Assembly (NCBI GenBank): GCA_038087875.1
Contig: CM075988.1
Span: 16,866,001-16,930,000 of the forward strand
Direction of reading: 5' to 3'
DNA: 64,000 nucleotides
DNA from: Malacoraja senta
Taxonomy: Eukaryota
Part shown: piece after piece, positions 1-3,479 of the stretch
Numbering within the stretch: the stretch's first letter is position 1
How the letters are laid out: every line of letters starts with the position of its first letter
Translations under genes and position numbers: made by a program
Notes under the pieces: model-generated
Told to the model about the DNA's origin: nothing
The model's database searches: none
What the model saw: the letters and a program-made list of their open reading frames with translations, nothing else

Positions 1-44
1 TGGCGCTGTAAGGCAGCAAATCTACTGCTGCGCCACTGTGCCAT
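1..44 (-). mobile_element. V-SINE (HE1-like) head, cut by window edge
   Basis: Reverse complement of GGCACAGTGGCGCAGCAGTAGATTTGCTGCCTTACAGCGCCA, the same head as other copies. Confidence 0.8.
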
Positions 45-389
45 CCTTTTAACAGGGGCTGTGCAGCCAAATTTCTGAGCCTACAGGTTGCAACTGAATA
101 AGGAATTCTGGTCGGAATTCATCAAACATGTGGGCTAAAGTTGAGACAAATGCGTCTATTCTGGATGAAGTTCACGGACTTGCTTTGAAGTAATCCTCAT
201 CATGACAACTAACTATCACGCACTACTATGGATGTACCATGATCCAAGGTGGACACCTCATGAACAATAACCACGTTACAGACCGTTCCCAGCCAAACTA
301 TGCCAGTAACTTACTGTTCCCCAAAACAGGGAATTTTCCTTTTACTGATTTAGCCACAGCGGACAATTTGATGAGACTGCAACATGCAG

Positions 390-528
390 TTTTCTTCTTG
401 CGTATGGCGTGCACAGCCTTAAGTTGTAGGACAACTTGTTCTGTTTGATCTTATTTGATTGTGCACGCCGGGTTGATTGCATTCGTCGAAACAGGGCGGA
501 CCACGTGAAGGTTGCAGTCTCCCACCCC
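390..528 (-). mobile_element. Short non-autonomous retroposon with 5' HDV-like ribozyme and (GAA)n-type tail
   Basis: 10-bp direct repeat CAACATGCAG at 380-389 and 529-538. Minus-strand 3' end reads ...CGCAAGAAGAAAA. Internal stem GGCGTGCACA (406-415)/TGTGCACGCC (460-469). Confidence 0.8.
475..528 (-). ncRNA. Minimal HDV-like (CPEB3-type) self-cleaving ribozyme, predicted
   Basis: P1 GGGGUGG/CCGCCCU with G1-U wobble; P2 GACUGCA/UGCAAUC (1 mismatch); P3 ACC/GGU; L3 UUCACGU; GU then UUCGA in place of P4; J4/2 CGAA with putative catalytic C at 485. Confidence 0.75.
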
Positions 529-598
529 CAACATGCAGCAAGACAACCCCTTGGAATTTATTGTTAACTGTAGGATTATTAAATGTATTTTGTTTATT

Positions 599-902
599 GG
601 CGGCACAGTGGCACAGCTGGTATAACTGCCGCCTCCGCGCCAGAGATCCGTTTAGATCCTGAACTCAGGTACTGTCTGTGTGGAGTTTGCATGTTTTTCT
701 CGTGACTGCGTGGATTTCCTTCCGTTTCCTCCCTCATCTGAAAGATGTGCAGGCTTGTCAGTTAATTAGCCTCAATAAATTCCCCCTAGCGTGCAGGGAG
801 TTGATGAGAAAGTGAGATAACATAGAACGGCTGTGAACGGGTGATCGATGGTCGGCGTGGACTAGGTGGGCCGAAGGGCCTTCCTCGGTGCTGTATCTTT
901 AC
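599..902 (+). mobile_element. tRNA-derived V-SINE (HE1-like), near full length
   Basis: tRNA-like head with A/B-box-like motifs, V-domain core GGAGTTTGCATGTT...GTG...TTTCCTCCC, and CR1-like tail GGGCCGAAGGGCC...GCTGTATC. Confidence 0.85.
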
Positions 903-3258: not shown

Positions 3259-3331
3259 TGTGTGTTTGTGTGTGTGTGTGTGTGTGTATGTATATATATA
3301 TTATATATATATATATATATGTGTGTGTGTT

Positions 3332-3364
<33 letters not shown>

Positions 3365-3377
3365 GTGTGTATATATA
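3002..3377. repeat. Compound (TG)n/(TA)n microsatellite
   Basis: Alternating TG and TA runs seen directly. Confidence 0.98.
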
Positions 3378-3479
3378 AGACAGATCCCGGTCTCTAATTA
3401 AGGATGGGTTATGCTGAGTAAACTAGGAAGGGCAGCTATGGGATCTTTAGCCGTCATGAAGCATTGCTGGACGTCCTGC

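What the first reader, a model, noticed from the sequence alone, without database searches (positions are those of the whole stretch)
380..538. 139-bp retroposon capped by a minimal CPEB3/HDV-like ribozyme whose cleavage site coincides with the element's 5' end
Seen: on the minus strand 528->475 reads GGGGUGG GA GACUGCA ACC UUCACGU GGU CCGCCCU GU UUCGA CGAA UGCAAUC. This gives P1 (7 bp, G1-U wobble), P2 (6/7 bp, one C-A mismatch), P3 ACC/GGU, L3 UUCACGU, almost no P4, and J4/2 CGAA (C at 485). G1 (528) abuts the 10-bp TSD CAACATGCAG. The rest is a long hairpin with a GAA-type tail; there is no tRNA head and no ORF. Established: UUCACGU and CGAA are the L3 and J4/2 of the mammalian CPEB3 ribozyme, HDV-like ribozymes process the 5' ends of R2/RTE-type retrotransposons, and P4 is dispensable. 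Inference: this is a promoter-less SINE-like element that cuts itself out of read-through transcripts and is mobilised by a LINE (tail suggests RTE). I cannot tell whether this family has been described.
Basis: partly seen in the sequence, partly recalled or inferred. Interest (0 to 1): 0.92.

Follow-up and report, generated by a model that had tools for sequence, protein, structure and literature searches.

The report
Ribozyme-headed mini retroposon and its LINE
This is one copy of a 139-base mobile element, present in thousands of copies, whose first 54 bases fold like a stripped-down hepatitis-delta-type self-cutting RNA inherited from the front end of a larger jumping gene in the same genome, a known trick of such elements seen here in an unusually small form.

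Summary
Window 528->390 (minus strand) is a 139-nt retroposon flanked by the 10-bp duplication CAACATGCAG. Its first 54 nt draw a P4-less HDV-like fold.

The family is large: 970 exact 37-nt cores and 2516 exact 3' ends in the 1.94-Gb genome. A target duplication abuts G1 in 48 of 55 copies.

I found the likely partner: a 3.2-kb RTE-like LINE (APE-type endonuclease plus reverse transcriptase, 30-nt 3' UTR, (GAA)n tail). It ends in CATTCGCAA(GAA)n, against the SINE's CATACGCAA(GAA)n. Its own 5' end is an 89-nt HDV-like fold.

The SINE head aligns to the LINE head with a single 35-nt gap, which is P4. Seven of 18 pairs changed on both sides and 97% of cells stayed paired.

Against: Rfam scores stay below threshold (12-15 bits), self-cleavage is untested, and one polyA RNA-seq run shows no pile-up of read starts at G1.

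Ribozyme-headed RTE elements and bipartite non-autonomous RTEs are already described, so this is a well-supported new member of a known kind. The likeness to the CPEB3 ribozyme is no stronger than the likeness to a bacterial HDV-like ribozyme.

The parts
529..538 (.). Target-site duplication, copy upstream of the element's 5' end (CAACATGCAG on +)
   Evidence: identical to 380-389
390..528 (-). Whole 139-nt non-autonomous retroposon copy (e1 = 528, e139 = 390)
   Evidence: family copies share exactly this span
475..528 (-). 54-nt P4-less HDV-like ribozyme-type head
522..528 (-). P1 5' strand GGGGTGG; G1 at 528 is the proposed base 3' of the cleavage site
   Evidence: pairs with 493-499; (4 pairs of P1 changed on both sides; 3 of them separate SINE from LINE)
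513..519 (-). P2 5' strand; this copy GACTGCA (minority C at 517), family majority GATTGCA
500..512 (-). P3 (ACC/GGT) enclosing L3 TTCACGT; C at 507 can pair with G at 492 (P1.1)
   Evidence: invariant in SINE and LINE
493..499 (-). P1 3' strand CCGCCCT
482..492 (-). J1/4 GT, 5-nt linker TTCGA where the LINE has a 35-nt P4 region, and J4/2 CGAA with the candidate catalytic C at 485
   Evidence: single 35-column gap against the LINE head; the C is invariant in 15 of 15 rows
475..481 (-). P2 3' strand TGCAATC
406..469 (-). Long stable hairpin of the body, no detected source
   Evidence: z -4.10, 0 of 200 shuffles as stable, measured on copy L002; no match to the LINE
398..406 (-). 3' terminal box CATACGCAA, 8 of 9 identical to the LINE's last nine bases CATTCGCAA
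390..397 (-). Tail GAAGAAAA; in other copies (GAA)2-5
380..389 (.). Target-site duplication, copy downstream of the tail

Best explanation
The element is a non-autonomous derivative of an RTE-like LINE that lives in the same genome. It has a SINE-like size but belongs to the 'bipartite non-autonomous LINE' or SIDE type.

Its head is the LINE's 5'-terminal HDV-like ribozyme with the P4 arm deleted. Its last bases and its (GAA)n tail are those of the LINE. A stable hairpin of unknown source lies between them.

Proposed mechanism (inferred): the element has no promoter of its own and is transcribed as part of longer host transcripts. The head folds into the nested double pseudoknot and cuts the RNA immediately 5' of G1. 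This leaves a 5'-OH RNA that begins at G1. The LINE's endonuclease/reverse transcriptase recognises the 3' end and tail and copies the RNA into a nicked target. Because the template begins at G1, full-length copies begin at G1, flanked by 7-16-bp target duplications.

Shown here: the family, its boundaries, the partner LINE, the homology of the two heads, and compensatory change in P1 and P2.

Inferred: catalysis, read-through transcription, and mobilisation by this LINE.
For: Family size. 970 exact 37-nt cores (control 0) and 2516 exact 27-nt 3' ends (control 0).

5' ends. 36 of 40 scored matches start at base 1. 29 of 30 copies chosen by the 3' end alone carry the head. A TSD of 7-16 nt (median 12) ends at the base before G1 in 48 of 55 non-duplicate copies.

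Fold. All 18 pairs are formed in the majority sequence, and 96.6% of cells are paired over 43 copies, against 25-43% when the partners are slid.

Rfam. When only the head is scanned, the only 2 of 4227 families with E<=10 are both HDV-type.

Partner LINE.
- RVT_1 domains.
- An Exo_endo_phos_2 fragment.
- A 30-nt 3' UTR plus (GAA)n in 6 of 6 copies read.
- 3201 nt with a TSD in one full-length copy.
- 5958 first-look candidates for its C-terminal 195 aa.

LINE 5' end. 8 of 13 independent copies start at the G1 of their own P1 directly after unrelated flank.

Homology of the heads. MAFFT aligns the 54-nt SINE head to the 89-nt LINE head with one 35-column gap.

Covariation. 7 of 18 pairs changed on both sides (4 in P1, 3 in P2). 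97.4% of cells are paired, against 31-44% slid. The covariation score is 0.378, against <=0.132 slid. 0 of 500 shuffles reach the observed values.

Subfamily-level variants all fit the fold. e8 lies in J1/2. e32 G>A turns U.G into U-A. e45 gives CTAA, the J4/2 printed in the F. prausnitzii ribozyme consensus.
Against: No cleavage assay exists for this RNA.

Rfam scores are far below threshold: 12.5-14.5 bits against gathering scores of 35 and 44. There is no hit at gathering level or in the wider scan. The LINE head gets no HDV-type hit at all, only a spurious mir-TAR match.

The LINE's J4/2 reads CAGA rather than CNAA. My own descriptor required CNAA and, scanned over 600-2000 of the reverse-complemented L075, found nothing there; that stretch proved to be non-LINE, since the copy is 5'-truncated. 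No full-length LINE head was put through the descriptor.

PolyA RNA-seq, run X24. All 734 reads that touch the element run on into other sequence (0.95 by 20 or more letters). No place shows many molecules beginning. About as many reads cross the G1 junction (219+31 loose ends) as cross the 3' junction (204+22). Efficient cleavage in steady-state polyA RNA is therefore not visible. The library's strandedness, the share of dead copies and the loss of short 5'-OH RNAs are all unknown.

The covariation rests on two lineages, SINE against LINE, so it is about six pair changes in one comparison plus one within the LINE. Inside the SINE family no pair changed on both sides.

Folding energies are not exceptional: z -1.41 for the element and -0.67 for the LINE head.

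Only 9 bases plus the repeat are shared at the 3' end.

No intact LINE open reading frame was seen among the copies scored.
Confidence: 0.8

Rival explanations
1. The conserved 5' fold is a structural element of the RTE 5' UTR (protein-binding site, translation or promoter element) that does not cut itself. The sharp 5' ends come from transcription initiation at G1.
For: Cleavage is untested. The polyA RNA-seq shows no starts at G1 and many reads crossing it. Rfam does not recognise the LINE head. The LINE's J4/2 is CAGA. The review passage read says R2 protein binds a pseudoknot in the ribozyme region, so such folds can have a second role.
Against: The fold has the whole HDV-type layout: a 7-bp P1 starting at base 1 with a G.U base pair, a 3-bp P3, a 7-nt L3, a C-G for P1.1, and an invariant C before P2'. 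The SINE lost P4 and kept exactly the parts that form the catalytic core. In the passages read from the review, RTEs are described as lacking promoters of their own.
Confidence: 0.12
2. It is an ordinary Pol III SINE whose head comes from an unrecognised small RNA. The HDV-like drawing is incidental.
For: Size, copy number and dispersed insertion resemble SINEs. There is no T4 run in the sense strand. Earlier follow-ups in this scan found that ribozyme drawings on SINE heads in other genomes did not hold.
Against: No tRNA was found. No small-RNA family matches. The head is homologous to the 5' end of a LINE, not to a small RNA.
Confidence: 0.03
3. Chance: the pairings are what any 54-nt stretch might offer.
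For: My loose descriptor matches about twice per 128 kb of shuffled sequence. The folding z-scores are weak.
Against: The match begins on the first base of the family. It is kept through seven two-sided pair changes in a second element. Slid registers pair only 31-44% of cells.
Confidence: 0.02

Closest known systems
HDV-like ribozymes at the 5' ends of RTE-clade and other non-LTR retrotransposons (Ruminski et al. 2011). The paper itself is not held. I read how it is cited in PMC6765202 and PMC5786205.
   Same: The ribozyme lies at the extreme 5' end. The element has no promoter and is released from a co-transcript. The partner has RTE features: one reading frame with endonuclease and reverse transcriptase, a very short 3' UTR and a simple-repeat tail.
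   Different: From recall, the families tested there were mainly from insects and other invertebrates; I could not check the paper. Here the LINE/derivative pair is in a 1.94-Gb animal-type genome, and the derivative's ribozyme has lost P4.
R2 SIDEs and R2/R1 hybrid SIDEs of Drosophila (PMC3414825, passages read)
   Same: Non-autonomous elements made of a LINE's 5' ribozyme plus a LINE 3' end. The helices are kept by compensatory change. The ribozymes were active in vitro.
   Different: SIDEs sit in fixed rDNA sites, are a few hundred bp long, are few in number and keep P4. This family is dispersed, 139 nt long, has thousands of copies and lacks P4. Its middle part is not LINE-derived.
Bipartite non-autonomous RTEs (RTESINE2, WALLSI3, MAR4_MD; PMC5786205, passages read)
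   Same: They are RTE derivatives that keep the 5' end and the 3' end. The paper itself suggests that a 5' ribozyme explains why the exact 5' end is retained.
   Different: In the passages I read, the ribozyme is offered as a possible cause, and no folds or covariation are given. Here the retained 5' part is exactly the ribozyme core and only about 9 nt of the 3' end are shared.
Minimal (P4-less) HDV-like ribozymes and theta ribozymes (PMC10879173, passages read). Also R2 ribozymes with too few P4 nucleotides to form a structure (PMC3774820).
   Same: The core has no P4 arm and is about 50-55 nt long.
   Different: That paper states that nearly 99% of theta ribozyme and minimal HDV-like ribozyme sequences were confined to bacteriophages. 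This one is in a eukaryotic retroposon, and its P4-bearing parent is at hand in the same genome.
Mammalian CPEB3 ribozyme (Rfam RF00622)
   Same: Same L3 (UUCACGU). Same CCCUGU after P3'. Same CGAAU before P2'. P1 starts GGGG.
   Different: Scores are 12.5-14.5 bits against a gathering score of 35. There is no P4 and the P2 differs. It is a multi-copy mobile element, not a single intronic locus. The bacterial F. prausnitzii model scores the same (12.7-14.4 bits), so the likeness is not specific.
L1Tc/NARTc of Trypanosoma cruzi (PMC3383444, abstract)
   Same: An autonomous LINE and its short non-autonomous partner share an HDV-like ribozyme in their first bases.
   Different: It is a different LINE clade, and its 77-nt head also acts as a promoter. 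Nothing here shows promoter activity.

Membership tests
HDV-like (delta-like) self-cleaving ribozymes | Nested double pseudoknot: P1 of about 7 bp starting at the cleavage site, P2, a 3-bp P3 closed by a 7-8-nt L3, with P1' directly after P3' | tested here: met
   all 18 pairs formed in the majority sequence; 96.6% of cells paired over 43 copies
HDV-like (delta-like) self-cleaving ribozymes | Helices supported by compensatory change in relatives | tested here: met
   7 of 18 pairs changed on both sides (4 in P1, 3 in P2); six separate SINE from LINE heads and one varies within the LINE; only two lineages are compared
HDV-like (delta-like) self-cleaving ribozymes | Unpaired catalytic C in J4/2 and a G.U (or G-C) pair at the base of P1 | tested here: met
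   the C is invariant in 43 of 43 SINE and 7 of 7 LINE rows; G1.U36 in 14 of 15 rows
HDV-like (delta-like) self-cleaving ribozymes | Match to a curated model at its threshold | tested here: not met
   best 14.5 bits against gathering scores of 35-44
HDV-like (delta-like) self-cleaving ribozymes | Self-cleavage giving 2',3'-cyclic phosphate and 5'-OH ends | not testable with these tools
   The only indirect look, polyA RNA-seq, shows no starts at G1
CPEB3 ribozyme (RF00622) | Reaches the family's gathering score; single conserved copy in a CPEB3 intron; P4 present | tested here: not met
   12.5-14.5 bits against 35; thousands of dispersed copies; P4 absent
RTE-clade LINE (the partner) | About 3.2-kb element encoding an APE-type endonuclease and a reverse transcriptase | tested here: inconclusive
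   RVT_1 hits at E 1e-16 and 2e-9. Exo_endo_phos_2 at 26.6 bits, just under the 27.4 cut-off, on a 60-aa piece. Length 3201 nt. All copies read carry frameshifts or stops.
RTE-clade LINE (the partner) | Extremely short 3' UTR ending in simple-sequence repeats (as stated in PMC2887409) | tested here: met
   30 nt after the stop codon, then (GAA)2-4, in 6 of 6 copies
RTE-clade LINE (the partner) | Reverse transcriptase groups with RTE in a phylogeny | not tested
   No named RTE reference proteins were on hand. The protein-atlas look-up gave only unnamed RVT_1 clusters.
Bipartite non-autonomous LINE / SIDE | 5' end and 3' end of the parent LINE joined, no reading frame, TSDs | tested here: met
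   Head homologous over 54 columns. TSDs in 48 of 55 copies. The 3' share is only 9 nt plus the repeat, and the 64-nt hairpin is not from the LINE, so the structure is really tripartite.
Classical Pol III SINE | Head derived from tRNA, 5S, 7SL or snRNA with an internal promoter | tested here: not met
   no tRNA and no small-RNA family

The most novel reading that the evidence does not exclude
The mammalian CPEB3 ribozyme descends from the head of an RTE-type retrotransposon, or of a mini-derivative of one, like this. On this reading the family here is its closest relative outside mammals, and the natural P4 deletion shows how small a working eukaryotic HDV-like ribozyme can be.
Probability: 0.1. 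Interest if true: 0.85.

Novelty: new member of a known kind. Interest (0 to 1): 0.58.

Why it matters
It gives a matched natural pair in one genome: a P4-bearing HDV-like head on an RTE-like LINE and a P4-less 54-nt version on a derivative with thousands of copies. The two differ by compensatory changes in P1 and P2.

That makes it a ready test case for three questions:
- what the minimal eukaryotic HDV-like ribozyme needs;
- whether Kojima's idea (PMC5786205) holds, that a 5' ribozyme is why bipartite RTE derivatives keep the exact 5' end;
- how promoter-less retroposons spread from read-through transcripts.

For genome annotation, these copies should be filed as RTE-dependent non-autonomous elements and not as tRNA-type SINEs. 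Each sense copy inside a gene is a potential RNA cleavage site.

Tried and rejected
Covariance model. I used plain patterns instead.

Pattern tricks to find the head or the hairpin joined to other sequence gave only deletion variants: 3 hits, 0 hits, 2 hits.

L036 looked like a possible LINE 3' end. Its upstream sequence is single-copy, so it is a 5'-truncated SINE copy.

A Pfam RVT_1 search of the genome listed 150 of 159857 candidates, but loci could not be cut out. It did not lead to the partner. The partner came from scanning loci already held for non-SINE (GAA)n tails.

A pattern for other P1' sequences found a different repeat that holds a head-like piece but has no P2' or J4/2.

Rfam on the LINE heads gave nothing of HDV type.

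The protein atlas gave unnamed RVT_1 clusters only.

The look-up of sequencing runs listed no RNA holder on record. One raw RNA run was offered as a same-study addition and was laid.

Earlier findings of this scan: none for this genome or this sequence.

Literature. The searches found no paper describing this family. The search was badly framed and says nothing. Ruminski 2011 and Webb 2009 are not held, and no Repbase or Dfam look-up was possible. I therefore cannot say that the family is unnamed.

I did not establish the organism. The genome looks animal-type and, to my eye, like a fish, but that is an impression.

Full report
OBSERVATION. P1 is GGGGTGG/CCGCCCT. The two-base joiner is GA. P2 is GACTGCA/TGCAATC with one C-A mismatch. 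P3 is ACC/GGT around L3 TTCACGT. GT and the linker TTCGA follow P1', then J4/2 CGAA (C at 485) and P2'. The 10-bp repeat CAACATGCAG stands at 380-389 and 529-538 and touches both ends of a 139-nt unit. ARAGORN finds no tRNA.

IS IT A FAMILY, AND WHERE DOES IT START? The window lies in a 1.94-Gb genome of 6182 contigs. A DNA search with the 139 nt gave 1311 first-look candidates. The 40 that were scored are 96-100% identical. 36 of them start at query base 1, 3 at base 2 and 1 at base 11. Exact-pattern counts are whole-genome counts: the 37-nt core from P3 to P2' occurs 970 times, and the last 27 nt occur 2516 times, each with 0 for the reversed control.

To avoid choosing copies by their heads, I took the first 30 places that hold the 3' 27-mer. 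29 of them carry the head and one (L036) is a 5'-truncated copy in single-copy DNA.

A script examined 55 copies. Dropped beforehand were three segmental duplicates, L036, and L057, whose head the script could not place. In 48 of the 55, a direct repeat of 7-16 nt (median 12; one mismatch allowed from 11 nt) ends exactly at the base before G1. In 4 no repeat was found, and in 3 the repeat is off by 1-3 nt. In 40 of the 48 the repeat can also be read 1-4 bases into the G run, so the start is fixed to G1-G3 there.

The tail is (GAA)2-5 or a decayed form of it. The majority P2 strand is GATTGCA, which pairs perfectly. The window's C at e12 is a minority state: 5 of 43 aligned copies have it, and 97-100% of reads in four runs show T.

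HOW GOOD IS THE FOLD BY ITSELF? A loose descriptor of my own asked for:
- G at base 1;
- a 7-bp P1;
- a joiner of 0-4 nt;
- a P2 of 6-8 bp with at most one mismatch;
- a 3-bp P3;
- an L3 of 7-8 nt;
- a 2-60-nt gap, then C-N-A-A.

It hit two places on both strands of the window: this one and a (GT)n/(AT)n microsatellite. It hit 1.95 places on average in 40 dinucleotide shuffles. So a match somewhere is expected by chance, but a match on the first base of a repeat family (about 1.5e-5 per position) is not.

Over 43 copies, 96.6% of pair cells are standard pairs, against 25-43% with slid partners. No pair changed on both sides, as expected for a young family.

Rfam finds nothing at gathering level or in a 271-nt scan. 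Scanning only the head leaves two families of 4227 with E<=10, and both are HDV-type:
- CPEB3_ribozyme: 12.5 and 14.5 bits, E 0.35 and 0.17, gathering score 35;
- HDV-F-prausnitzii: 12.7 and 14.4 bits, E 1.4 and 1.3, gathering score 44.

These are leads, not memberships.

THE PARTNER LINE. Pattern tricks to find the head or the hairpin attached to other sequence failed. I then scanned the 269 kb already fetched for (GAA)n tails that do not belong to the SINE. This turned up, in L058, the 3' end of a LINE. It has an open frame ending in a Cys-His motif, a stop codon, a 30-nt 3' UTR and (GAA)3.

- Its last nine bases before the repeat are CATTCGCAA. The SINE's are CATACGCAA.
- The C-terminal 195 aa have 5958 first-look candidates in the genome. 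The scored copies are 70-92% identical.
- Longer copies carry RVT_1 (E 1e-16 and 2e-9).
- Further upstream is an Exo_endo_phos_2 fragment at 26.6 bits, just under the 27.4 cut-off.
- Two copies are 95% identical over 908 nt. This is similar to the SINE's copy-to-copy identity, so the two families are of similar age.
- One full-length copy measures 3201 nt from its G1 to the end of its tail and has a target duplication, with five extra bases at the 5' junction. Another copy has the duplication GTTTACAAT(GG).

A size of 3.2 kb, endonuclease plus reverse transcriptase, a tiny 3' UTR and a trinucleotide tail are the features given for RTE elements in PMC2887409 (abstract and passages). One moth RTE there even ends in (GAA)2GA. 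Rex3 of fishes carries (GAA)2 before its own repeat (PMC6274825). I did not make a tree, so 'RTE-like' is a description by features.

THE LINE'S OWN HEAD. Upstream regions of six copies share homology that begins at one point. A pattern for the LINE-type P3/L3 found 40 places (control 0): 15 LINE heads and 25 SINE copies with a single A>T change in L3.

Of 13 independent LINE 5' ends read, 8 begin exactly at the first G of GGGAGAG (or a one-base variant) right after unrelated flank. One has T at base 1, one has a 15-nt partial duplication, and three are irregular in their first 4-6 bases.

The first 89 nt draw the same fold:
- P1 GGGAGAG/CTCTCCT;
- joiner AT;
- P2 GTCGGCA/TGCCGAT;
- P3 ACC/GGT;
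- L3 TTCTCGT;
- GT, then a roughly 40-nt segment that folds into an imperfect stem (P4);
- GAC-AGA, then P2'.

MAFFT, given no hint, aligns seven LINE heads and eight SINE heads with a single 35-column gap in the SINE where P4 lies.

On that alignment, 97.4% of cells pair, against 31-44% in six slid registers. 7 of 18 pairs changed on both sides: 4 in P1 and 3 in P2. P3 and the C-G of P1.1 never vary. The covariation score is 0.378, against at most 0.132 slid. 0 of 500 shuffles reach the observed pairing, two-sided cells or score.

The caveat is that the rows fall into two lineages. This amounts to about six compensated pair changes in one comparison, plus one inside the LINE (A3-U34 in L088). 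Even so, differences that fall on both strands of two helices and nowhere break them are what a conserved fold predicts, and neither chance nor plain homology predicts that.

RNA. No run on record as RNA holds the element (this says nothing about expression). One raw polyA RNA-seq run (X24, coded organism G) was laid together with contig sets of three other coded organisms. All three contig sets hold the family, in 103 to 919 contigs laid, so it is not confined to one species label.

In X24, 734 reads touch the element. All continue into other sequence (0.95 by 20 or more letters). Both orientations occur, with first mate on minus about twice as often as on plus. No place shows many molecules beginning. 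Reads crossing the G1 junction (219+31 loose ends) are as many as those crossing the 3' junction (204+22).

So in steady-state polyA RNA the copies sit inside longer transcripts, and efficient cleavage is not visible. This counts against the reading, but weakly, for five reasons:
- strandedness is not documented;
- most copies are decaying (for example 8-15% of reads have lost the J4/2 C, which sits in a CpG);
- the released short RNA has no poly(A);
- 5'-OH ends are poorly captured;
- HDV-like ribozymes can be slow.

MECHANISM. I commit to the following at about 0.8. The element is transcribed as a passenger of host transcripts. The head cuts 5' of G1. The RTE-like LINE's protein uses the 3' end and tail to prime reverse transcription at a nicked target. 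The copy then begins at G1 and is flanked by a duplication.

The stable hairpin in the body (z -4.10, 0 of 200 shuffles) may protect the RNA or help recognition. That is a guess. The LINE's 3' 106 nt show no comparable structure (z 0.68).

KNOWN RELATIVES. The kind is described.
- The review PMC6765202 (passages) says RTEs and baggins elements carry HDV-like ribozymes, lack promoters and ride on other transcripts. It also says some non-autonomous SINEs use hammerhead or HDV-like ribozymes.
- PMC5786205 (passages) defines 'bipartite nonautonomous LINEs', lists RTE among the few clades that make them (RTESINE2, WALLSI3, MAR4_MD), and proposes the 5' ribozyme as the reason they keep the true 5' end.
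- PMC3414825 (passages) shows the same logic for R2 SIDEs, with compensatory changes and in vitro cleavage.
- PMC3774820 (passages) notes that P4 is so variable in R2 that some ribozymes have too few bases to form it. It also notes that unrelated HDV-like ribozymes converge on the same active-site letters.
- PMC10879173 (passages) states that nearly 99% of theta ribozyme and minimal HDV-like ribozyme sequences were confined to bacteriophages.

What is particular here: both members of the pair are in hand in one genome. The derivative is extremely small and abundant. The P4 loss can be read directly. The middle is not LINE-derived.

CPEB3. The shared letters are real (UUCACGU, CCCUGU, CGAAU). 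A mouse CPEB3 ribozyme primer in PMC10274809 also holds TTCACGT. But the bacterial F. prausnitzii model scores the same and shares P3 and most of L3. The LINE parent has TTCTCGT and CAGA. PMC3774820 warns of convergence. I therefore give descent of CPEB3 from such an element about 0.1.

VERDICT. This is a new member of a known kind. Catalysis is still to be shown.

Noticed in passing
L067-L073 (e.g. L068:1-441, minus strand): A different low-copy repeat with roughly 123-nt internal monomers. It contains a 33-nt piece nearly identical to SINE bases 1-33, with P3 extended to GGAACC/GGTTCC around the same loop TTCACGT. It has no P2' or J4/2. Its last monomer has GGGGTGGGAGAT followed by a C/T-rich run. 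Which element borrowed from which is unknown.
   Followed up: partly
L089 with L095 (G000:C7:27516008-27517760): A LINE copy with an intact head and the C-terminal and 3' end only about 1.75 kb apart, with a target duplication. It is an internally deleted LINE, the sort of intermediate from which short derivatives could arise.
   Followed up: partly
L082:16-130 and L083/L091: LINE heads that break off after about 44-47 nt and continue in other sequence. In L082 the continuation holds a second head-like piece (GATTGCA ACC TTGTCGT GGT) with a P1' that matches nothing upstream.
   Followed up: no
genome-wide: 25 SINE copies carry the LINE-type L3 (TTCTCGT) on SINE-type P1 and P2. At about 1% of copies this fits random A>T change, but it could also mark an old subfamily.
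   Followed up: no
window 390-528, run X24: RNA reads with the first mate on the minus strand are about twice as many as the reverse, across the whole element. If the library is stranded, antisense copies dominate in polyA RNA.
   Followed up: no
window 598-800 (+): About 70 nt from the element lies another, unrelated dispersed repeat starting GGCGGCACAGTGGCACAGCTGG. A similar start is seen at window 1-45 and in the flanks of several loci. It is probably a common SINE of this genome.
   Followed up: no
window 3321-3400 (+): A (GT)n/(AT)n microsatellite satisfies a loose HDV-like descriptor. This is a reminder that such descriptors need low-complexity filtering.
   Followed up: yes
SINE e45 (window 484): A large subfamily has CTAA instead of CGAA in J4/2 (10-49% of depth, depending on the organism's run). 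This suggests a master copy with that change spread successfully.
   Followed up: partly
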